A stretch of 29,048 bases of DNA. Origin: Candidatus Forterrea sp. (GTDB lineage: Archaea; Iainarchaeota; Iainarchaeia; Iainarchaeales; JAAZKV01). Below are positions 19,381 through 28,462 of the stretch, piece by piece. The stretch spans positions 1-29,048 of the forward strand of contig DYDN01000001.1 of assembly GCA_020717885.1 (NCBI GenBank), given 5' to 3'. Made by a program: the position numbers and the translations under genes. The stretch's first letter is position 1. Each line of letters begins with the position of its first letter. A model generated the notes under the pieces. The model did no database searches and was not told where the DNA came from. It saw only the letters and a program-made list of their open reading frames with translations.

Positions 19381-22300
19381 TTATCTAGATTTTTTATAGT
19401 GTTCAAGTATTTTCTTTTTCTCTTCCATTATAACGGTTTTTCTTATTTCATCAACCGCATCAATATTTGCGGACACAGAATCTATTCCGTACCAAATTAG
19501 TTTTGTCACCATCTCTGGGTTGCTTGCGGCTTGTCCGCAGATGCTTGTTTTTACTCCCGCGGGTTTGCACTTTTTTATTACATATTCAAGTTGTCGTAAT
19601 ATTGCGGGATGAAGCTCAGTAAAATTCTTCTGCACTTTCTCATTATTCCTATCCATTCCTAGTGTTAGTTGTGTTAAATCATTTGTTCCAAATGAAACGA
19701 ATTTTATGTGGGGTATGAGTTCATCAATTATCCATACTGCTGCGGGGGTTTCCACCATTACTCCAATATCAACTTCTTTTTGCAGTCCAATCTCCTCAGC
19801 GATTTTTTTCGCCCCAAGTACTTCATCAAGGCTTACAACAAATGGTAGCATTACTCCAACATTCTTTAGTCCTTCAGAATGTAATTCCTTTATTGCCATT
19901 AGCTGTGCTTTTAGTAGTCTTGGTTCATCAAGGTCTCTTCTTATTCCGTGCCACCCAAGCATTGGATTCTCTTCTTTTGGTTCCTTATTCCCGCCGATGA
20001 GTTCTTTGTACTCATCGCTTCGTGCGTCAAATGTTCTAAACCAAACGGGTCCGCTAAATTTCTCCGCAACTACACGTATTCCTTTTTTCACAACATCCTT
20101 TAGCTCAAGGTCTTTGTTTTGCCTAATGAATTCAGCGGGGTGCATTCCTGATGAAGTTATCATGTGTTCGGCGCGTAGTAGTCCTACTCCATCAGCCTTT
20201 GTCGCTGCTGCTTGTTCTGCGGCGTCAGGGAGCGCTACATTTACTTTAACTTTTATTGAAAGGTCCTTTAGTACATCAAGTAGTTCTTTTTGTTCTTCTT
20301 TTTTTTGCTCCTCATTCATTTCTTTGTATTTTAGTTTCCCAAATTGTGTTTCAATTACTTTTACTCTTAATTTCTCTTCAACACTCATTTCTTTTTGTTC
20401 GCTCGCCTCTTCAAGTTCTTCTTCAAGTTCATCAATTTCTGCTTCTTCAAACATTTTGATTTCTTCTTTTGTGTGTGTTATTTCTACTTTTCCAGAGTAA
20501 ACTTTTCCTGTGAATCCATCAATTGTTACTTCCTGTCCGTCGCTTAACGTTTCGGTAGCGTTTGATGTTCCAACAACGCATGGTATTCCTAGTTCGCGTG
20601 ATACAATCGCGGCATGGCAATTGTTTACTACTAAAGGTGTTAAGTTTTTTGTGAAGACAAGGTAGGTGTGATTATCGCCAATAGTAATATTGTATACTTC
20701 TCCTTGACTCTCAGTTCCAATTTGGGTGACTCTTTGCATTCTCAAGTCGCTATCAATAAGTTTTCTTATGTTTTGGTCTTTAACTAGCTGGAGTTCTTTT
20801 TCTGAAACGTATAAATTTTTCAAAGCCCTTTCTTTTACTCGGTAAGGTACACTTGAAGCTTGGAGTTGATTCGCAGAAAAAAATCTTGTTTGTATTATTC
20901 TCTCTTTTAAAACTCCTTTGACTCGTTTAGTGTATAATAGTATTTTCTCCAACTTTTCTACTATTTGCACATTGTAAATCGTTCTGTTCGTTGTTACTTG
21001 TGGGATAGTTCCAATTCTCAGGCAGGCGGTAACCACTCCTTGAAGGAGGGTTTCTTCTGAAACATAAATATTTATCCTATTATTGTGGAAGCATCCGTCC
21101 CCATCTATTACTCCTGCTAAGAAATTATATGCGATTTCTTCGCTTCCTTGAATGAGTGTTTGGACAACTTGTTGTTCTTCTGTATTCATTTCATGCGCAA
21201 TTTGTTTTGAGTATAAACGGTGTGCTGTTGCCGAGCCTTCAACTTTGTGCCCGCGTATTGACCCTGAGGAAATTTTCTTTTCTGAAATAGCAAATTCTTT
21301 ATTAAAATTACTTTTCGCACAGTCGTTCATATATTCAATGAATTCTCTTTTTTCAGGTGTGTTTTTTTGTATAAATTGGACTTCGCCATGCGTTCTTGAC
21401 TGGTAAACTGAGCCGTCCGTCATTATCCCGCCTAAGAAATAAGCCATTTTTTTATCTTTCTCAGAGGCGTCCATCAAAGCGGGAACATGTTGTGCAACAC
21501 ACACCATTTCGTTGTTTCTCAGCATTTCTTGTATTGGGGTGTCTTCGAGTTCCGCATTTCTAACATTAATCATTTTGTGGTCTGGTGTAATCGTTAGTGT
21601 ATTGTGGGTAATTTTCCCCGATTGGGACACACTTATTGTTATTGTGGGGGAGTTTCTTTTCATTGAGAAAATAATCGGTTTCCACTCAGTTTTCATTGTT
21701 TGCTTGTTGAAAGAAATTACTTCTAACCCGTTAAATCCTTGTTCATGTATTTGTTTAAATGTCATAAACCCTTTGTTAGTCAAAACCTTTGTTTCCCCAT
21801 CAAAACAAGTTCTTCCGCCTTCATTTGTAATTATTCCTTTTGCTTTTTTCATTACAGGTACCCAGGAGGGAGAGGTCATTTTTGTTACCAAAACATCTCC
21901 AGTTTGTACTTTTTCAATATCCTCAATCTCGGGCACGACTTTCACAATTCCAGTTACTACTCCTGGCGCAGCGGCAAGTCCTTCCAGTATTGGTTTTTGT
22001 GTTGTCTCAACTGCTTGCCCCAAAACTTTTTTCTCAAGTGTTGTGATTGGTCTTGCTTGCACAATAAATAGTTCGTTGTGTTCCATTGCCCATTCTATAT
22101 CCATTGGCTTTGAGTAATGTGCTTCAATTTTTTTTCCTATTTTTGCCAGTTCCAATATTTTTGCATCACTCATCTTTTGCATGGAAGCTTTTCCTGGCCC
22201 AAGGTTTATGCGTACATTTTGTTTTCGCTGTAAATTCTTCGAATTTACGGCGCCCGCAAAGCCTTGCTTTGCTTGGTCTTCTTTAATAAGCATCCATTCT

Positions 22301-23031
22301 TGTTTATTTATTTTCTTGGAAACAATTTTCTCGCCGGTTTTATTAACAACATAATTATCCGGGGTAATGCTTCCTGATACAACCGTTTCTCCTAAGCCAA
22401 ATCCTGCTTCAATAATTACTTTATCTAAATCCCCCGTTGGATCAGCAGTAAACATTATTCCGCTTACTTCACTCTCAACCATTTTTTGCACAACCGCGCA
22501 TAAACCAACTTTTTCTGTTCCAAATCCTTGTTTTTTTCTATAATATACTGCGCGTGCTGTGAATAGGGAAGCCCAGCATTTTTGTACCGCTGCTACAACC
22601 TCTTTTTCTCCTTGGATATTTAAGTAAGTTTCCTGCTGTCCTGCGAATGATGCTTCGGGCAAGTCTTCTGCTGTTGCGCTACTCCTTACTGCAACTAGTG
22701 CGGGGGCTCCTTGGCTTAATATTTTATAATTCTCCATTATTTCTGTTCGTATTTGCCCCGGCATTCTGGTTTTTTCTATTAGTTCGCGGATATTTGCGCT
22801 CACCATTTCGAGTTGTTGGGTGTTCTCAACATCAATTGCATCAATTGAGTCCACAATTTTTTTCTGTATCCCCATGTCCCCAACGAACTTAAAGTATGCT
22901 CCGCTTGTAACAACAAAGCCGTTTGGCACGGGAAAATTAGAATTAACCATTTCGCCTAGGGACGCTCCTTTTCCGCCTACGCTAGCAACATCATTCATGC
23001 TTATTTCTTGGAACCAGAGAATGTTTTTCAT
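19381..23031 (-). CDS. ppsA: Phosphoenolpyruvate synthase (pyruvate, water dikinase) precursor containing an intein
   Basis: VGGKGASLGEM, VRSSATAED...SFAGQ (ATP-grasp), GGRT/CHAAIVSRE (phospho-His), GLLRAEH, FGTNDLTQ and SICGQ; about 820 aa after splicing. Confidence 0.95.
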   Translation of the reverse strand: MKNILWFQEISMNDVASVGGKGASLGEMVNSNFPVPNGFVVTSGAYFKFVGDMGIQKKIVDSIDAIDVENTQQLEMVSANIRELIEKTRMPGQIRTEIMENYKILSQGAPALVAVRSSATAEDLPEASFAGQQETYLNIQGEKEVVAAVQKCWASLFTARAVYYRKKQGFGTEKVGLCAVVQKMVESEVSGIMFTADPTGDLDKVIIEAGFGLGETVVSGSITPDNYVVNKTGEKIVSKKINKQEWMLIKEDQAKQGFAGAVNSKNLQRKQNVRINLGPGKASMQKMSDAKILELAKIGKKIEAHYSKPMDIEWAMEHNELFIVQARPITTLEKKVLGQAVETTQKPILEGLAAAPGVVTGIVKVVPEIEDIEKVQTGDVLVTKMTSPSWVPVMKKAKGIITNEGGRTCFDGETKVLTNKGFMTFKQIHEQGFNGLEVISFNKQTMKTEWKPIIFSMKRNSPTITISVSQSGKITHNTLTITPDHKMINVRNAELEDTPIQEMLRNNEMVCVAQHVPALMDASEKDKKMAYFLGGIMTDGSVYQSRTHGEVQFIQKNTPEKREFIEYMNDCAKSNFNKEFAISEKKISSGSIRGHKVEGSATAHRLYSKQIAHEMNTEEQQVVQTLIQGSEEIAYNFLAGVIDGDGCFHNNRINIYVSEETLLQGVVTACLRIGTIPQVTTNRTIYNVQIVEKLEKILLYTKRVKGVLKERIIQTRFFSANQLQASSVPYRVKERALKNLYVSEKELQLVKDQNIRKLIDSDLRMQRVTQIGTESQGEVYNITIGDNHTYLVFTKNLTPLVVNNCHAAIVSRELGIPCVVGTSNATETLSDGQEVTIDGFTGKVYSGKVEITHTKEEIKMFEEAEIDELEEELEEASEQKEMSVEEKLRVKVIETQFGKLKYKEMNEEQKKEEQKELLDVLKDLSIKVKVNVALPDAAEQAAATKADGVGLLRAEHMITSSGMHPAEFIRQNKDLELKDVVKKGIRVVAEKFSGPVWFRTFDARSDEYKELIGGNKEPKEENPMLGWHGIRRDLDEPRLLKAQLMAIKELHSEGLKNVGVMLPFVVSLDEVLGAKKIAEEIGLQKEVDIGVMVETPAAVWIIDELIPHIKFVSFGTNDLTQLTLGMDRNNEKVQKNFTELHPAILRQLEYVIKKCKPAGVKTSICGQAASNPEMVTKLIWYGIDSVSANIDAVDEIRKTVIMEEKKKILEHYKKSR
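20620..21807 (-). mobile_element. Intein (396 aa) with a LAGLIDADG homing endonuclease in ppsA
   Basis: Starts CFDGETKVLT after GGRT; block B TPDH; FLGGIMTDG and FLAGVIDGDG motifs; VYNITI..HTY block F; ends VVNN before extein Cys-His. Confidence 0.95.
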
Positions 23032-23105: not shown

Positions 23106-23303
23106 TTACTCAACAAGCGCTATTTGCCCGTTCTTTAATATGTAAGTGCTTTCTTTTATTTTCATCGCCCTGCTGTTGTTAAAATCTATTATTCCTGTGG
23201 TTCCCTCAAGCCCGCTTATTCCACTAAGCACCACTTGCCCTATCTCAAATGGTTTGAGTACGTCCCCATGCTCATCAAAAGTGATTTTGATTTTACTGCT
23301 TTT
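23106..23303 (-). pseudogene. Start-less 65-codon remnant resembling the C-terminus of a Liv-type ABC substrate-binding protein
   Basis: My own translation: KSSKIKITFDEHGDVLKPFEIGQVVLSGISGLEGTTGIIDFNNSRAMKIKESTYILKNGQIALVE*. The frame is closed upstream by TAA TAG (23304-23309) and has no start codon at its 5' end. Confidence 0.5.
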
Positions 23304-24708
23304 CTATTACAATTACTTGTCCGTGGTTTGCTTTTACTTGCACTATCCACCCGTCTTTTAGGATGCGGGTCGCATTTTTTGTTCCAACTATGCATGGGAG
23401 TCCTAATTCTCGTGAAATTATTGCTGCATGGCATGTAACTCCGCCCTCATCAGTGACTATTGCGACTGCTTTCTTCATTGCTATAACATATTCCGGTCTA
23501 GTCATTGATGCCACTAGAACATCGCCTTCATTAACTTCTTTTATTGATTCAAGCGTCGTGCATATTTTTACTGGGCCCGTTGCGGTGCCAAGGCTTGCCG
23601 CCATTCCGCTTATTGTTTCAATATTTTCGGTTTGTTTGTGCATTGCTTCATAAAATTCATTAAATTCTTTACCAGATATTGCTTTAACACTTCCAAATTT
23701 TTTAATAAATACCACTCCATTTATGCGTTCGTTTGCGGTTTTTAGCAGGGTTCCATCTTTTAGTAAATTAACGTTTAATTCTATTGGGAGTAAATATTGC
23801 AATAAGCGTTCTTCAATTCCAAATCTTTTGGATATTTCCAGTATGGCTCTGCAGGTTATATAGACCATTTTTAGATAGTTCTTTTTTCTCTCATCCTGCC
23901 AATTAGTTAAAAAATCAATTAGGCTCACGATTTTGTTCTCTTTGTCTTTGAATCCAACTTTTTGTGCCAGTTCTTTTTTTTGCTTTTGTATTTCTAAAAA
24001 ATCCGGTTTTTTGAAGGTATTAAGCTCATCTGCCATCTGGGCTATTGCTTTTTGCGTTATTTTTGTGCTTTCAGCGATATTTGCGTTTATCCAGTAAAAT
24101 TTCTCAAAAAACTCTTTGAATAGTTTCTCTTTTCTTTCAGGACTCGCGTGTTTTATTTCCCAAAGGAGTTCGTCTCTTTCTGATAAGAAGGATTGTTTTG
24201 TCGGAGTAGATAACACTGAGAAAGATTTGTTTGATTCTTTTTTCTCAAGTGTTTTTGGAAGAATATTTCTTAGTTCATTCTCAAGTGTTAGGGATAAACC
24301 CTCAATAAGGTGGGCTGTTCCAATTGTTGTGTCCATCGCGCCTGAAAGCGATTGTGCAAAGGCAATTAATTCGGGGTCATTGAATTCTGTCAGCTTGCTG
24401 TCGCTTGTTTTAATGATGTCTTTTATTTTTGAAACCTCTCCTTCGTATTGTTCTTTCTTTTTAACAAGATAATTTTTGTCCTTTTCAAGATTAGCCAGTA
24501 CAGTTTTTGGTATTCTTTCCAAGTCTTCGATTAAGTAGTTTAGTTCGCAGTAGTCCTGTTTAAATGAAATAGCAAGTGTCTTGTATGTGAAACCCAATCC
24601 TTTTTGCATTCCCTCTATTGAGCAGCCATCCACAACCATAAATGGTCGCCAAGTAAATGCTTGCCGGTACCAAGGTTGTTTTGTAAGATTTTCAAGTTCT
24701 TGCTGCAT
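23293..24708 (-). CDS. Stand-alone PEP-utiliser: helical N-terminal domain plus C-terminal phospho-His swivel domain (paralog 1)
   Basis: C-terminal GMAASLG...GDVLVASMTRPEY...TDEGGVTCHAAIISRELGLPCIVGT; no ATP-grasp or TIM-barrel motifs. Confidence 0.85.
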   Translation of the reverse strand: MQQELENLTKQPWYRQAFTWRPFMVVDGCSIEGMQKGLGFTYKTLAISFKQDYCELNYLIEDLERIPKTVLANLEKDKNYLVKKKEQYEGEVSKIKDIIKTSDSKLTEFNDPELIAFAQSLSGAMDTTIGTAHLIEGLSLTLENELRNILPKTLEKKESNKSFSVLSTPTKQSFLSERDELLWEIKHASPERKEKLFKEFFEKFYWINANIAESTKITQKAIAQMADELNTFKKPDFLEIQKQKKELAQKVGFKDKENKIVSLIDFLTNWQDERKKNYLKMVYITCRAILEISKRFGIEERLLQYLLPIELNVNLLKDGTLLKTANERINGVVFIKKFGSVKAISGKEFNEFYEAMHKQTENIETISGMAASLGTATGPVKICTTLESIKEVNEGDVLVASMTRPEYVIAMKKAVAIVTDEGGVTCHAAIISRELGLPCIVGTKNATRILKDGWIVQVKANHGQVIVIEKQ

Positions 24709-24718
24709 TTATTTCGCC

Positions 24719-25432
24719 TCACCTAAGTATTTGGCTTAGCTGTGTTGTAACATCAAATGGTCTGCCGCGGAACTTCATTATTGTTTGTCCGTTTGGCATG
24801 TGAAAGAAAAGCATGGCTTCTGTTTCTTTTAGGGTTTCGCCTTGCGCAGGTTTATTCTTTGCTCGTGATCCTTTCGGTTTTATTGCTCTGTAATCTGTTC
24901 CAAGAGATTTCATTACCGCGGCTTCAAACCATGCGCTTGTAATGTTTAAATGGAATGGTCTCTTTTTTGCGGCTATTAGGGCAGTTGTTTCTGGAATACT
25001 TCGTTTTAATATTCTATCTCCAACAACAGTCGCACGCTCAAGCACAGTTTCGGGTATTCTCCCGTCAATCCAATCAGCAAGCAAAGCCGCATCCGATTTT
25101 GTTTTCTCCAAAGCCACCATTGCTTCAGGATTTTTTATGCAACCAAATCCTAGGTCGCTTCTTAATCTCATTTGTCTCTCTTTTTTGCCTTTGAAGTTGC
25201 TTCTGGCAATTCTTGCGGTGGTGCTGTGCCTAATTTGGTCCCCGTGGCTTGTCACTAGTTTGAACCCTTTAGGGAGATTTCTTCCCGCCCATGCTGCTTT
25301 TCCCCAGCCAGTTCTGCTTAATCCTGATTTTCCCTTTCCTTTCAGCGAGTGCCTTCCTATTGCGGTTATTCCGCTTGCATTCTCAATTAGGTTGCTTGTT
25401 TTAAGGTTTGAAATTTTTCTTGCTAAGGGCAC
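24719..25432 (-). CDS. Divergent histidine phosphatase (PGM/SixA-like) fold protein
   Basis: ITAIGRHS (RHG motif), LSRTGWGKAAWAGRNL, TS...RHSTTA, W..G....E......R and NITSAWFEAAV at the second-His position (His replaced by Ser); GTG start after GGTGA. Confidence 0.6.
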   Translation of the reverse strand: MPLARKISNLKTSNLIENASGITAIGRHSLKGKGKSGLSRTGWGKAAWAGRNLPKGFKLVTSHGDQIRHSTTARIARSNFKGKKERQMRLRSDLGFGCIKNPEAMVALEKTKSDAALLADWIDGRIPETVLERATVVGDRILKRSIPETTALIAAKKRPFHLNITSAWFEAAVMKSLGTDYRAIKPKGSRAKNKPAQGETLKETEAMLFFHMPNGQTIMKFRGRPFDVTTQLSQILR

Positions 25433-25498: not shown

Positions 25499-27061
25499 TT
25501 AGCGTAGTTTCACAATAGTCCCGTTGTCAAGGTTTATTTCCACCATGTCTCCTGTCCTTAGTACTTCAGTGGCAATTTTAGTTCCTACGATGCAAGGTGT
25601 TTTTAGTTCTCTTGAAACTATTGCAGCGTGGGTGGTTATTCCGCCTTCGTTTGTGATTATTGCAAGGGCTTTTTTCATGAGTGGCACAAATTCGGGGCGC
25701 GTCATTCCTGTTACAAGTATTTCCCCCTGCTCAAAATAGTCTTTAGACGGGTCATAAAGTATTCTTACTCTTCCCCTTATTTTGCGTTTTCCTTCTCCTC
25801 TTGATGCAACCATTCCTTCAATGACTGATTTGGAAGTTAATTCTTCGCGTTGTTGTTTAAAATAATTCCAAACAAATTCGCTTTCTTTGCCAACTACAAA
25901 CTCGGTTTTTGGTTCATCGCCTTTAAGGTAAGAGACATATGCTGCAGAATATCTTTCAGTTAATACGTTTTGAGTAAGCCTTTTTTGTTTCTGAAATAAA
26001 TCAACGATTTCCGTTATTCTGTATTTGTATAATTCTTCAAGAGGCACCCCAAAGTCTTTCTCCGCTCTTGTTAATACAAGCCCTATACAATGTCCGAGTC
26101 TTTGGAGGCATACTTTTCTTGCATCTTGAAGAATTGAGAAGAATCTTATTAATTCAAAGAATTCCTGTTGGCTTTTTGATAATTTGTGCTGTTTTATGGC
26201 CTCTTCAATTAGGCCGATAATCTTTACTGGTTTTTCTTCAAGTCTTTTTTTCTCTAGTGTGATTTCGTCAATATTTTTCCCAGAAATTAAGTCGGAGGCT
26301 GAGTTAAAGAAGTATTTCTCGTCAAGTTGTACTGCTCTATTGAATCCGTTGTGCATCCACTGGAATCTAAAGGTGTGCTCTTTTAGAAGCCCCATGAATT
26401 TTTTGTTCTTTGATGCCTCTTCAAAGTTTTTATTAGATATTGCTTTTAGCAATAATTTATCATCCACAGACTTTAGTATGCTATCAAATAAGTCTATGCA
26501 TTCATTTTCCGCATTGGAGTGCTCTGTCGGCGTGCTGAGTAGTACAACAAGCTCGGACTGATTCATCTTTGTGTTCTTTGGGATGTGTTCTTCAAAATCC
26601 TTTGTGCCCAGTGCGTCCGCGCTGTCGGATATTATGGAATATCCATAAAACTCTTTTCCGAGGGCGTGTATTTTTTTATAAAGGTCAATAATTTTGTTAC
26701 TTTCCAAGCTTTGGAAGCCGTCTTTTAGTGACTCATTATATAGTCTTTCAATCTCAATTGAAACTCCATCAAATTTCTTCCTTTGTGAGAGCAGGTGCTG
26801 TTTATTCTCAGTCCATGCTTGCAGGAAGTGCTCAAACATTTTTATTGATTCGTCTGCTGGTTTTTGCTCAAAACAGTAATCTCCTTCGAATGAGTAGACA
26901 TTCATAGTGTAAAATTCTTTCTTATACGTGCGGGACGCTTCAAAGTGGCAAGTCTTCCAATGGTCCATAAATTGTATTGAAGCTTTTGCCTCTTCATGTA
27001 TCCATTTGTGTGAGTCAAGCATCTTTTTTATTTGCTCAATTGTAGGCTCCATAAGACTCAC
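25499..27061 (-). CDS. Stand-alone PEP-utiliser: helical N-terminal domain plus C-terminal phospho-His swivel domain (paralog 2)
   Basis: C-terminal GMVASRG...GEILVTGMTRPEF...TNEGGITTHAAIVSRELKTPCIVGT; start GTG 27061 or ATG 27052. Confidence 0.85.
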   Translation of the reverse strand: MSLMEPTIEQIKKMLDSHKWIHEEAKASIQFMDHWKTCHFEASRTYKKEFYTMNVYSFEGDYCFEQKPADESIKMFEHFLQAWTENKQHLLSQRKKFDGVSIEIERLYNESLKDGFQSLESNKIIDLYKKIHALGKEFYGYSIISDSADALGTKDFEEHIPKNTKMNQSELVVLLSTPTEHSNAENECIDLFDSILKSVDDKLLLKAISNKNFEEASKNKKFMGLLKEHTFRFQWMHNGFNRAVQLDEKYFFNSASDLISGKNIDEITLEKKRLEEKPVKIIGLIEEAIKQHKLSKSQQEFFELIRFFSILQDARKVCLQRLGHCIGLVLTRAEKDFGVPLEELYKYRITEIVDLFQKQKRLTQNVLTERYSAAYVSYLKGDEPKTEFVVGKESEFVWNYFKQQREELTSKSVIEGMVASRGEGKRKIRGRVRILYDPSKDYFEQGEILVTGMTRPEFVPLMKKALAIITNEGGITTHAAIVSRELKTPCIVGTKIATEVLRTGDMVEINLDNGTIVKLR

Positions 27062-27086: not shown

Positions 27087-27752
27087 TTACTTCTTTAATT
27101 CAATCTCTTGCCCGGGATTTAGGATTATGCAGTTGATTCCAGCTTTTTTGAGGGCGTCTTTGAACGCGTTTGCGTTTGCTTTTATAGCATCGAAGGTATT
27201 GTAATGGATTGGAATAATATTTTTTGCCTTTAGCAGTTTTGCGGCTTCAACTGCTTGAGTGGCATTCATCGTGAATACCCCTTCTATGGGCAAAAAAGCG
27301 TAGTCGATTGGGTATTGTTCGCCAATTAGTTTCATGTCTCCAAACAAGCCCGTATCTCCCGCATGGTAAATAGTTATTCCTTCTTTTTGAAGTATAAACC
27401 CCGAAGGGTTTGAAGTAGCTGAATGGGTTGCAAAAGTCATCGTGATTTTCCACCCGTTTTGGCTTATAGTGCCCCCTATGTTTAAAGGATTAATTGCTAT
27501 GCCCTTTTGTGCAAATTCCATTGCCATATCAAAGTTGCAAACAATAGTTGCTTTTTTCTCAAGTGCCAGTTCTTCAACACCGAATAAATGGTCAAGGTGG
27601 CTGTGTGTTATACACAAAACCTCAAGGTTCTTGTCAGAGTCAGATAGTTCTGTGGGGGGTTTCATCCCGAATTGGGGTATTTCTTTAATCCACGGATCAA
27701 CCATTAGGTTGTCTATCTTTACTGTTGCGTGCCCAATAAACTTTGCTTTCAT
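27087..27752 (-). CDS. Metallo-beta-lactamase fold hydrolase (UPF0173/YtkL-like)
   Basis: FIGHA, VDPW, THSHLDH, YHAGDT and IPIHYNTF motifs; ATG 27752 follows AGGTGA. Confidence 0.9.
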   Translation of the reverse strand: MKAKFIGHATVKIDNLMVDPWIKEIPQFGMKPPTELSDSDKNLEVLCITHSHLDHLFGVEELALEKKATIVCNFDMAMEFAQKGIAINPLNIGGTISQNGWKITMTFATHSATSNPSGFILQKEGITIYHAGDTGLFGDMKLIGEQYPIDYAFLPIEGVFTMNATQAVEAAKLLKAKNIIPIHYNTFDAIKANANAFKDALKKAGINCIILNPGQEIELKK

Positions 27753-27814
27753 AATTTCACCTTTATTAAATCCTGCCTGCAAAGAAGTTAATAATTGCCC
27801 GCTATATAGCGGAA

Positions 27815-28462
27815 TCAGGCGCTTTTGGCAAGTTCTTTCATTAGGGCGCGCTCTGTTTTGCGTAAATGGTCTTTTAGTGTGCTGAATGGAATTCCTAGTT
27901 TCTTGCTTAATTCACTGAGGCTTATTCTTCTTGGGTATTCATAATACCCTGCTTCAACCGCTTTTTTCCACCAGTTAAATCCAATTGCATCAGATTCATT
28001 CAGCTTGGGCTGGAAGAATATGTTATATTTCCTTTTCTTTATGCTCAAAAGTTCAATAGTTGCGAAATCTTTTTTTGAGTTTACTTTTTCATAAAACTCC
28101 AAAAGATTTTCTTTTTTGTTGCTTCCTATTGTCCACCACTGGAAACCCTTTTCCTCAAGAATTGGTTCTAAAAAGAAAATATTTCTGTCAGAAACCATGG
28201 TGTGAAAGGACCTTATCGCGTCCTGGGTAAAAAACAATTGGTCTCCCTCGCGGTGAATAACTTTAACTCTGGGTTCTTTAGACACTTCCTCAATAACCTT
28301 TTCTTTGTCTTTCCCCCAAAAAGTAGCCACTCGCATTATTTTAGGCACTCCGTCTTCTTCAAAATTGTTAAGATACTGCGAAACCGCGTGCATATCATAC
28401 TTGTCGCATAACATTAGCAGCGGACTGTTTTTGTGCCAAACCTTGAAATGTGCAACCCACAT
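27815..28462 (-). CDS. Bat/HTH_10-type transcriptional regulator
   Basis: C-terminal AVEAGYYEYPRRISLSELSKKLGIPFSTLKDHLRKTE; N-terminal putative sensor domain; divergent from livH. Confidence 0.88.
   Translation of the reverse strand: MWVAHFKVWHKNSPLLMLCDKYDMHAVSQYLNNFEEDGVPKIMRVATFWGKDKEKVIEEVSKEPRVKVIHREGDQLFFTQDAIRSFHTMVSDRNIFFLEPILEEKGFQWWTIGSNKKENLLEFYEKVNSKKDFATIELLSIKKRKYNIFFQPKLNESDAIGFNWWKKAVEAGYYEYPRRISLSELSKKLGIPFSTLKDHLRKTERALMKELAKSA

What the first reader, a model, noticed from the sequence alone, without database searches (positions are those of the whole stretch)
24719..25432. Apparent ORFan is a divergent RHG-family phosphatase with the second His replaced
The motif order matches histidine phosphatase branch 1: R27-H28, L-S-x-x-G..A...G, R68...TA, W121...E132...R140, and the strand-helix NITSAWFEAAV, where the usual SH/TH His is Ser166. 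The protein is very basic, which would suit an acidic protein or nucleic-acid substrate. SixA, the known phospho-His phosphatase, belongs to this fold. It could be an active variant, a phosphotransferase or a pHis-binding pseudoenzyme.
Basis: partly seen in the sequence, partly recalled or inferred. Interest (0 to 1): 0.65.

Follow-up and report, generated by a model that had tools for sequence, protein, structure and literature searches.

The report
Remodelled histidine-phosphatase partner of split dikinases
This small, very basic archaeal gene encodes a divergent histidine-phosphatase-fold protein that has swapped one of the four "universal" active-site residues for serine and sits between genes for phosphate-carrying kinase modules, so it is probably their phosphate-removing partner.

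Summary
The ORF at 24719-25432 (-) is real and is not an orphan. It belongs to a family of about 40 representative clusters, found in 73 of 201 genomes of its DPANN archaeal phylum (same order as Ca. Iainarchaeum). Members are annotated as hypothetical.

- **Fold:** AlphaFold2 (pLDDT 96) with Foldseek (TIGAR, PGAM5, PhoE; E about 1e-6) and profile comparisons (hhalign 94%) place it in the histidine phosphatase superfamily, branch 1.
- **Active site:** R27, H28 and R68 are invariant. Ser166 sits where the second core His should be. Most relatives keep that His. The Ser clade arose once, and only it has His/Gln at position 69 and a longer, more basic loop, which suggests remodelling rather than decay.
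- **Context:** the only recurrent neighbours are PEP-utilizer "swivel" (phospho-His) proteins. The 471-aa neighbour models as the substrate-binding plus swivel half of a rifampin-phosphotransferase-like dikinase.

I read it as the phosphate-removing or phosphate-accepting partner of these modules, acting through phospho-His28. Its substrate (dikinase product or swivel phospho-His) is unresolved.

Earlier notes of this scan describe the same dikinase and phosphatase pairing on other DNA (CPR bacteria). I found no paper describing it.

The parts
24719..25432 (-). Gene for the 237-aa divergent histidine-phosphatase-fold protein (P0001)
   Evidence: ORF. AF2 pLDDT 96.2. Foldseek top 50 are all His-phosphatase superfamily. 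Family of about 75 sequences.
25349..25354 (-). Codons AGG CAC for R27-H28, the RH(G) nucleophile dyad at the end of strand beta1
   Evidence: Read from the sequence. Invariant in the family except in two incomplete sequences. Aligned to canonical RHG.
25226..25231 (-). Codons AGG CAC for R68-H69. R68 is the second phosphate-pocket arginine. H69 is specific to the Ser clade.
   Evidence: R68 is invariant. Position 69 is H or Q in 14 of 15 Ser-clade members and in 0 of 58 others.
24935..24937 (-). Codon AGC for Ser166, at the position of the canonical second core histidine
   Evidence: Family alignment has His here in 53 members, Ser in 15 and Q/R/N in 5. hhalign extended alignment puts it on the canonical IVtH histidine.
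24818..24820 (-). Codon GAA for E205, a family-specific, nearly invariant Glu at the start of strand 206-211. It is a candidate alternative acid/base.
   Evidence: Its role is inferred only, because the tools return no model coordinates.
24821..24904 (-). Loop 177-204, which is lengthened and enriched in Lys/Arg in the Ser clade
   Evidence: Loop 177-205 has median length 29 aa in the Ser clade against 19 aa elsewhere. Median K+R is 7 against 4.
24718..24725 (-). AGGTGAGG: the gene's TGA stop lies inside a Shine-Dalgarno-like motif, 10 nt upstream of the ATG of the next gene (24708)
   Evidence: Read from the sequence. Suggests translational coupling (inference).
25499..27061 (-). Upstream neighbour, 520 aa: unknown N-terminal domain plus a C-terminal PEP-utilizers swivel (phospho-His) domain
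   Evidence: PF00391 at E 1.2e-22. Paralogue of the 471-aa protein at 26% identity.
23293..24708 (-). Downstream neighbour, 471 aa: substrate-binding plus swivel half of a rifampin-phosphotransferase-like dikinase (HpeH-like)
   Evidence: PF00391 at E 1.9e-24. AF2 pLDDT 89.8. Foldseek best match RPH 5fbu at E 2.4e-13. Aligns to residues 370-811 of an 812-aa PPDK_N-X-swivel protein.
19381..23031 (-). PEP synthase (PPDK_N + swivel + PEP-utilizers_C) with a LAGLIDADG intein in the swivel domain. It is the only ATP-grasp domain in the cluster.
   Evidence: Pfam.
27815..28462 (-). HTH_10 regulator. The same type of gene recurs beside two relatives of the phosphatase-like gene.
   Evidence: Pfam. 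Neighbour clustering.

Best explanation
The gene encodes a divergent branch-1 histidine-phosphatase-fold protein. It is a member of an uncharacterised, very basic family found in DPANN archaea.

The nucleophile dyad R27-H28 and the second arginine R68 are intact. I therefore expect it to bind a phosphoryl group and form a phospho-His28 intermediate (inferred, not shown).

In the window's clade the fourth core residue, the second His, has become Ser166. The same clade gained His/Gln at position 69, next to R68, and a longer Lys/Arg-rich loop before the invariant E205. I read this as a remodelled but functional phosphate pocket.

The gene is embedded among genes for rifampin-phosphotransferase-like dikinase modules, each a substrate-binding domain plus a phospho-His swivel domain. 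It appears translationally coupled to the downstream one. I conclude that it is the phosphate-removing or phosphate-accepting partner of these modules. It would take the phosphoryl group either from the modules' phosphorylated product (about 0.35) or directly from the swivel phospho-His in a SixA-like reset (about 0.25).
For: - **Fold:** AF2 pLDDT 96.2 and pTM 0.92. Foldseek top 50 are all superfamily members.
- **Homology:** PDB profile hits at E 6e-5. PF00300 hits in 8 of 33 relatives. hhalign 93.9%. ESM Atlas nearest clusters are His_Phos_1.
- **Conservation:** R27, H28 and R68 are invariant, and E205, D227 and T229 nearly so, including in all Ser-clade members.
- **Single origin:** the Ser clade is one branch (SH-aLRT 90) nested among His-bearing members.
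- **Co-changes in that clade:** position 69 is H or Q in 14 of 15 members against 0 of 58 elsewhere, and the loop is longer and more basic.
- **Context:** a swivel-domain ORF lies within 6 kb in 21 of 42 related loci and is immediately adjacent in about 16. These loci fall in at least seven separate branches of the tree.
- **Specificity of the neighbour:** it is the only widely recurrent neighbour family (17 loci). The window's genome has only 4 swivel ORFs in 758 kb, and 3 of them are in this cluster.
- **What the neighbours are:** RPH-like. Split dikinases of this kind, and pathways that phosphorylate and later dephosphorylate, are established (PMC12167813).
- **Precedent for phospho-His phosphatases in this superfamily:** SixA acts on phospho-His of NPr (title) and on PtsI and PfkA (PMC11974560).
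Against: - No biochemical data exist for any member.
- Half of the related loci show no swivel gene within 6 kb. One genus places the gene next to a DEAD-box helicase, and one relative sits beside an APH/choline-kinase-type gene.
- Genomes with the family average about 4.9 swivel hits (my hand tally from the per-genome tables), against 1-3 in most others. The link is not strict: some genomes with large arrays lack the family.
- Related genomes are not independent samples.
- The canonical proton-donor Glu is not conserved. D93 aligns to it only at low confidence.
- Loss of the second His could lower or abolish turnover.
- I could not check the geometry of H69, E205 and the basic loop relative to H28, because the model coordinates are not returned.
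- The swivel domains are not acidic (pI about 8), so the strong positive charge is not explained by docking to them.
Confidence: 0.55

Rival explanations
1. It is a phosphoryl relay or phosphotransferase, not a hydrolase. The swivel phospho-His would charge His28, as 2,3-bisphosphoglycerate primes dPGM. Without the second His, the phospho-enzyme would be long-lived and would pass the phosphate to a further, probably polyanionic, acceptor.
For: - The nucleophile and both arginines are kept, while the residue that helps transition-state stabilisation is lost.
- The superfamily includes mutases that work through a stable phospho-His (PMC12051542).
- HpeH alone catalyses phosphotransfer between substrates.
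- The high pI suggests an anionic partner.
Against: - Most family members keep the second His in the same gene context, so the context does not require its loss.
- No candidate final acceptor was identified.
- Full-length RPH-type dikinases phosphorylate their substrates without any relay (PMC4844700 abstract).
Confidence: 0.12
2. It is a catalytically dead pseudoenzyme that only binds phospho-His or phosphorylated ligands. It would act as a reader or regulator of the swivel modules.
For: One of the four residues described as conserved in all histidine family phosphatases is missing. The canonical Glu is not conserved.
Against: - R27, H28 and R68 are invariant across all 15 Ser-clade members. 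A pure binding protein would be expected to let the nucleophile drift.
- The clade shows co-changes that look compensatory.
- Position 166 also varies to Q, R or N elsewhere in the family with the rest of the core kept, so it appears to be the least essential core residue here.
- According to PMC11974560, no phospho-His reader lacking acceptor function is known.
Confidence: 0.1
3. It is an ordinary small-molecule phosphatase or mutase of central metabolism, for example dPGM-like and serving gluconeogenesis next to ppsA. Its position among swivel genes would be coincidental.
For: - PEP synthase lies 1.7 kb downstream on the same strand.
- The best structural matches are small-molecule enzymes with a helical cap: TIGAR, PhoE, phosphoserine phosphatase, RosC.
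- Half of the relatives lack a swivel neighbour.
Against: - Most recurrent neighbours are RPH-like modules that lack the PEP-binding domain, not PEP synthase.
- Adjacency recurs in at least seven separate branches, although swivel genes are rare in the genome.
- The genome has a separate canonical His_Phos_1 gene.
- Similarity to dPGM covers only the shared N-terminal core.
- The extreme pI is atypical for canonical relatives.
Confidence: 0.13

Closest known systems
Histidine phosphatase superfamily, branch 1 (Pfam PF00300 His_Phos_1): e.g. TIGAR, PhoE, PGAM5, phosphoserine phosphatase, RosC
   Same: Same alpha/beta fold with a helical cap. Same order of core motifs: an R-H dyad after strand 1, L-S/T-x-x-G...A...G in helix 1, and R-x-x-x-T-A at helix 2.
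   Different: - PF00300 does not detect it.
- It has RHS in place of RHG.
- The second core His is Ser166.
- The canonical Glu is not conserved.
- It has family-specific invariant residues E205, R222, D227 and T229 in a C-terminal R-G-x-x-F-D-V-T motif.
- pI is about 10.8, against about 8.5 for canonical relatives.
SixA, the bacterial phospho-histidine phosphatase of the same superfamily
   Same: Same superfamily. SixA's mechanism takes the phosphoryl group from a substrate phospho-His onto its own active-site His (PMC11974560). It acts on phosphotransfer proteins (NPr, PtsI), which are relatives of the swivel-domain world.
   Different: From general knowledge, SixA is a minimal protein of about 160 aa without the cap insertion, and it keeps both histidines. 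No SixA structure is among the 50 best fold matches. No specific sequence kinship was seen. A phospho-His substrate for this protein is an inference from context only.
Two-component RPH-like small-molecule dikinases (HpeHI; rifampin phosphotransferase), as the partner system
   Same: The 471-aa neighbour has the RIF-binding-like plus swivel architecture of HpeH and of the C-terminal two-thirds of RPH (PMC12167813). The Hpe pathway phosphorylates its substrate and later dephosphorylates it.
   Different: - Here two to seven divergent modules cluster around one histidine-phosphatase-fold gene.
- In this window no dedicated ATP-grasp subunit is present apart from PEP synthase.
- The substrates are unknown.
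- The papers I searched describe no histidine-phosphatase-fold partner.

Membership tests
Histidine phosphatase superfamily (branch 1) | PGM-like alpha/beta fold | tested here: met
   AF2 pLDDT 96.2 and pTM 0.92. Foldseek top 50 PDB matches are all superfamily members, best E 6.3e-7, probability 1.00, TM about 0.5.
Histidine phosphatase superfamily (branch 1) | Arg-His dyad (RHG motif) with the nucleophilic His after strand 1 | tested here: met
   R27-H28 follow strand 21-27. They are invariant in the family and align to RHG. The third residue is Ser, not Gly.
Histidine phosphatase superfamily (branch 1) | Second phosphate-pocket arginine (R58 in the Aquifex enzyme; PMC12051542) | tested here: met
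   R68 is the only fully invariant polar residue in A2. It aligns to the canonical RA..TA arginine.
Histidine phosphatase superfamily (branch 1) | Second core histidine (H149 in the Aquifex enzyme), described as conserved in all histidine family phosphatases | tested here: not met
   Ser166 occupies that column. 53 of 73 scored relatives have His. The protein is therefore a homologue that does not meet the catalytic-quartet definition, and I file it as a variant rather than a canonical member.
Histidine phosphatase superfamily (branch 1) | Acid/base residue (Glu or Asp; variable between families) | tested here: inconclusive
   D93 aligns to the canonical Glu only in a low-confidence stretch, and the position is not conserved. 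E205 is nearly invariant, but its position in space could not be checked.
Histidine phosphatase superfamily (branch 1) | Match to the curated sequence model PF00300 above its cut-off | tested here: not met
   No hit at E<=1 for this protein, and no match at this ORF in the genome-wide PF00300 scan. 8 of 33 relatives match weakly, best E 2.7e-5.
Histidine phosphatase superfamily (branch 1) | Phosphatase or mutase activity through a phospho-His intermediate | not testable with these tools
   Needs enzyme assays with an H28A control.
SixA-type phospho-histidine phosphatase | Minimal core without a cap insertion; dephosphorylates phospho-His proteins | tested here: not met
   A 60-residue three-helix cap (helices 102-111, 114-122, 134-154) is present. 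No SixA structure is in the top 50 fold matches. The substrate was not tested.
Partner of split RPH-like dikinases (an arrangement noted earlier in this scan, not a published family) | Recurrent adjacency to genes with a PEP-utilizers swivel domain and an RPH-like substrate-binding domain | tested here: met
   21 of 42 loci have such a gene within 6 kb and about 16 have it adjacent. It is the only widely recurrent neighbour family. The neighbour's fold matches RPH.

The most novel reading that the evidence does not exclude
The family is a dedicated protein phospho-histidine phosphatase, or phospho-His acceptor, for the swivel domains of dikinase modules. One enzyme would reset many different modules. 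That would make it an archaeal counterpart of SixA.

In the Ser166 clade, the lost core histidine would be functionally replaced by His69, which comes from a different structural element. This would be a migration of a catalytic residue within an otherwise fixed phosphate pocket.
Probability: 0.22. Interest if true: 0.75.

Novelty: new variant of a known kind. Interest (0 to 1): 0.55.

Why it matters
The four residues R-H-R-H are treated as the signature of every histidine phosphatase. Here a whole clade has lived without the second His while keeping everything else. It also shows clade-specific changes (His/Gln69 and a basic loop) that point to a definable compensation. A few mutants (S166H, H69A) and one structure could test this, and the result would show how essential that residue is.

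The gene also marks an uncharacterised system. In ultra-small archaea, and according to earlier notes of this scan in CPR bacteria, arrays of rifampin-phosphotransferase-like phosphate-carrying modules travel with one histidine-phosphatase-fold protein. Knowing whether that protein clears the modules' products or the modules' own phospho-His would say what these arrays are for. In genomes of about 1 Mb, such arrays are a large investment.

Tried and rejected
- **Single-sequence and small-alignment searches found nothing.** Pfam, NCBIfam and PADLOC scans of the protein gave no hit. The 3-sequence profile against PDB also gave nothing. Only the 33-sequence profile reached PDB phosphoglycerate-mutase-family chains.
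- **The search for related loci with the full alignment failed** because no stretch was conserved enough. The 9-sequence version found one genome locus.
- **Default hhalign aligned only the N-terminal 61 columns**. The second-His correspondence needed the low-mact extension, so it rests on that extension plus the family's own N-V-T/S-H column.
- **Defence-system reading rejected:** no PADLOC hits for the gene or its neighbours.
- **dPGM / central metabolism reading judged unlikely:** see the rival explanations.
- **Charge complementarity with the swivel domains not supported:** their pI is about 8.
- **Phylogenetic profile is only weakly informative.** Counts of swivel domains per genome do not separate family-positive from family-negative genomes well, because nearly every genome has PEP synthase.
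- **Four context look-ups gave little.** Three of the distant metagenomic members landed on contigs too short to help. The fourth showed no swivel gene but an APH/choline-kinase-type neighbour.
- **Bacterial-type promoter and terminator scans are uninformative for an archaeon**.

Full report
**1. The observation**

The window carries a 237-codon ORF with a GTG start on the minus strand at 24719-25432. A GGTGAT Shine-Dalgarno-like motif sits just upstream. The TGA stop is embedded in AGGTGAGG, 10 nt before the ATG of the next gene. Pfam and NCBIfam give no hit, even at E<=1, which explains why it looked like an orphan.

**2. It is a real, conserved gene and not an ORFan**

- A word-indexed search found two relatives at 52-56% identity.
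- An exhaustive phmmer search found 38 representative clusters at E<=1e-3 and 19 at E<=1e-10.
- A profile of 33 of them (A2) matched 73 of 201 genomes sampled from the window's phylum. About 45 of these were full-length matches.

The genome (758 kb in 85 contigs, 79% complete) is archaeal. The window encodes eRF1, TruD, Dph2 and an S-layer protein. One relative's contig is labelled Candidatus Iainarchaeum, and that genome is in the same order. Another relative is named "hypothetical protein [Candidatus Diapherotrites archaeon]". The family is therefore a DPANN (Iainarchaeota) family that public annotation leaves unnamed.

**3. Fold and homology**

With A2 as the alignment, AlphaFold2 gave mean pLDDT 96.2 and pTM 0.92. 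The order of elements is:

- strand 21-27, ending at R27-H28
- helix 40-51
- strand 58-63
- helix 67-79, starting at R68
- a three-helix insertion (102-111, 114-122, 134-154)
- strand 159-165, ending just before S166
- helix 169-176
- a long loop
- strands 206-211, 217-221 and 224-227
- helix 229-236

Foldseek against the PDB returned 94 matches at E<=1e-3. The 50 best are all histidine-phosphatase-superfamily structures: TIGAR at 6.3e-7, then PGAM5, PhoE, phosphoserine phosphatases, RosC, glucosyl-3-phosphoglycerate phosphatase and histidine acid phosphatases. TM-scores of about 0.45-0.6 and high rmsd indicate a divergent member.

Sequence evidence agrees:

- The A2 profile hits phosphoglycerate-mutase-family chains in the PDB at E 6e-5 over positions 22-85.
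- 8 of 33 relatives hit PF00300, best E 2.7e-5.
- hhalign of A2 against 22 canonical His_Phos_1 proteins from related genomes gives 93.9% probability and E 1.7e-7.
- The ESM Atlas feature search returns His_Phos_1 clusters (score 0.95).

It did not refute the reading.

**4. The active site**

[quoted passage not shown] An Asn and a Glu are described as variable. I tabulated 75 family members:

- R27, H28 and R68 are invariant, apart from two N-terminally incomplete sequences.
- E205, R222, D227 and T229 are nearly invariant and are specific to this family.
- The column of residue 166 reads N-V-T/S-H in most members, followed by E-A-V-F-E-R-L-T-G. That is the canonical "vsHg" strand-helix. The extended hhalign alignment places this column on the canonical second His with good per-column confidence.
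- Among 73 members scored at that column, 53 have His, 15 have Ser, 2 have Gln, 1 has Arg and 2 have Asn.

A maximum-likelihood tree rooted on canonical His_Phos_1 proteins gives three results:

- The new family is monophyletic (SH-aLRT 98).
- All Ser166 sequences fall on one side of a branch (SH-aLRT 90). They are nested within a starred clade whose other half has His.
- The Q/R/N replacements are scattered.

Ser166 is thus one derived substitution. The second His is the least constrained core residue in this family.

The canonical proton-donor Glu aligns with D93, but only in a low-confidence stretch, and that column is not conserved.

**5. Clade-specific co-changes**

Position 69, directly after R68, is His (10), Gln (4) or Leu (1) in the Ser clade. 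It is Ala, Thr, Ser, Gly, Val, Cys or Asn in all 58 other members, and never His or Gln. This position corresponds to the usually small residue of the canonical R-A motif.

The loop between L177 and E205 has a median length of 29 residues with 7 Lys/Arg in the Ser clade. Elsewhere it is 19 residues with 4.

All of this arose on one branch, so it is a single evolutionary event and cannot be tested statistically. It is the pattern expected if the pocket was rebuilt rather than abandoned. Whether H69 or a loop Lys/Arg reaches the phosphate site is an inference, because I could not obtain model coordinates.

**6. Charge**

The pI is 10.83 and the net charge is +25. The family median pI is 10.3. 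Canonical His_Phos_1 proteins of relatives have a median of 8.5. Only 1.9% of this genome's ORFs of 150 aa or more reach pI 10.5. Basicity is a family trait. The neighbouring swivel domains are not acidic (pI about 8), so the charge remains unexplained. A polyanionic substrate or surface is possible.

**7. Gene neighbourhood**

All of the following are on the minus strand, in order of transcription:

- an HTH_10 regulator (27815-28462)
- an MBL-fold protein (27087-27782)
- a 520-aa protein with a C-terminal PEP-utilizers swivel domain (25499-27061)
- the gene under study (24719-25432)
- a 471-aa paralogue of the 520-aa protein, 26% identical (23293-24708)
- PEP synthase with an intein (19381-23031)

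I fetched about 12 kb around 40 relatives and looked for swivel domains:

- 21 of 42 loci have a swivel ORF within 6 kb.
- About 16 have one immediately adjacent.
- One locus (L035) has seven.

Pfam shows three kinds of neighbour:

- X-swivel proteins of 370-520 aa
- PPDK_N-X-swivel proteins of 812-875 aa, which have the rifampin phosphotransferase architecture and no PEP-binding domain
- giants of 1168-1897 aa with two or three swivel domains

Clustering all neighbours within 4 kb shows the swivel family as the only widely recurrent one (17 loci). Next come SIMPL/DUF541 (6 loci, plus L001), an HTH_10 regulator (3 loci) and, in one genus, a DEAD-box helicase. The swivel-linked loci lie in at least seven separate branches of the tree. 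The window's own genome has only four swivel ORFs, three of them here. No PADLOC model matches.

**8. What the neighbours are**

The 471-aa protein aligns over residues 37-468 with residues 370-811 of an 812-aa PPDK_N-X-swivel protein (E 3e-41). Its AlphaFold2 model has pLDDT 89.8. The best PDB matches are rifampin phosphotransferase structures (5fbu, E 2.4e-13, TM 0.57), far ahead of PPDK and Enzyme I.

It therefore corresponds to the substrate-binding plus swivel half of an RPH-like dikinase. HpeH is the equivalent half in the two-component dikinase HpeHI. HpeH can transfer phosphate between substrates on its own, and in that pathway the phosphorylated intermediates are later dephosphorylated (PMC12167813).

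**9. Mechanism proposed**

*Shown:* the fold, an intact R-H-R triad, Ser at the second-His position, and recurrent linkage to RPH-like swivel modules.

*Inferred:* the protein binds a phosphoryl group in the R27/H28/R68 pocket and forms phospho-His28. It serves as the phosphate-removing or phosphate-accepting partner of the modules.

Two targets are plausible.

- **The modules' phosphorylated products.** In favour: the helical cap and the best fold matches are typical of small-molecule enzymes, and one relative sits next to an APH/choline-kinase-type gene instead.
- **The swivel phospho-His itself, in a SixA-like reset.** In favour: one phosphatase-like gene serves two to seven modules whose substrate domains are very different while their swivel domains are alike. 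SixA also dephosphorylates phospho-His on NPr, PtsI and PfkA.

I put these at about 0.35 and 0.25. A relay role gets about 0.12, a dead binding protein about 0.10, and an unrelated metabolic phosphatase about 0.13.

**10. Comparison with what is known, and novelty**

By descent and fold this protein belongs to branch 1 of the histidine phosphatase superfamily. It fails two membership criteria that I tested: the second core His, and the PF00300 model. I therefore file it as a new variant, not a canonical member. It is not SixA-like in architecture.

Full-text searches found no paper linking a histidine-phosphatase-fold protein to RPH-like dikinase arrays.

Earlier AI notes of this scan report the same pairing on other DNA, mainly CPR bacteria (e1-1278964, e1-1305595, e1-838511, e1-1568306). 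These notes agree with what I derived independently from the loci, but they are not independent evidence.

**11. Verdict**

The new information is fourfold:

- The protein belongs to a sizeable DPANN family.
- Loss of the second His is a single derived event with co-changes that look compensatory.
- The gene is a recurrent partner of split RPH-like dikinase modules.
- The substrate and the catalytic competence remain to be shown at the bench.

Noticed in passing
window 19381-23031 (-): PEP synthase carries a LAGLIDADG intein inside the swivel domain, immediately before the C-H-A-A catalytic histidine motif. It is the only ATP-grasp (PPDK_N) domain near the two ATP-grasp-less swivel modules.
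   Followed up: partly
L035 (G026:C7:45064-57810): Seven PEP-utilizers swivel-domain ORFs of 324-545 aa surround one histidine-phosphatase-like gene within 12 kb. This is a dense array of split-dikinase modules.
   Followed up: partly
L057:6805-12495, L054:1512-5921, L053:2322-5825, L059:6776-12682: Giant proteins of 1168-1969 aa sit directly beside the phosphatase-like gene. L057, L054 and L053 have one PPDK_N ATP-grasp domain and two or three swivel domains, i.e. fused multi-module dikinases. L059 (1969 aa) was seen only by its swivel match and was not Pfam-scanned.
   Followed up: partly
L001:3-704; L056:7596-8414 and equivalents in L028, L057, L058, L059, L063: A SIMPL/DUF541 protein recurs next to the phosphatase-like gene in seven loci. 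Its function is unknown.
   Followed up: no
window 27815-28462 (-); L004:6758-7423; L029:962-1633: An HTH_10 (bacterio-opsin-activator type) regulator recurs in three loci of the cluster. An MBL-fold gene recurs in two: window 27087-27782 and L029.
   Followed up: no
L044, L046-L049 (one genus): In this genus the phosphatase-like gene lies next to a DEAD-box helicase and an unknown 199-aa ORF, with no swivel gene within 6 kb. Given the family's high pI, an RNA-related role in some lineages is not excluded.
   Followed up: no
L098:6683-7660 (-): A His166-bearing relative (P0038) overlaps at its 3' end with a convergent APH/choline-kinase-family gene. It lies near a radical-SAM/PqqD pair and has no swivel gene nearby.
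   Followed up: no
L002:949-1257 and L096:1170-1481: A CutA1 gene lies convergent to the phosphatase-like gene in two unrelated metagenomic contigs.
   Followed up: no
G000:C80:12236-12745: The same genome has one canonical His_Phos_1 gene (198-aa open frame, PF00300 E 9e-37), so the divergent protein is not the cell's only member of the superfamily.
   Followed up: partly
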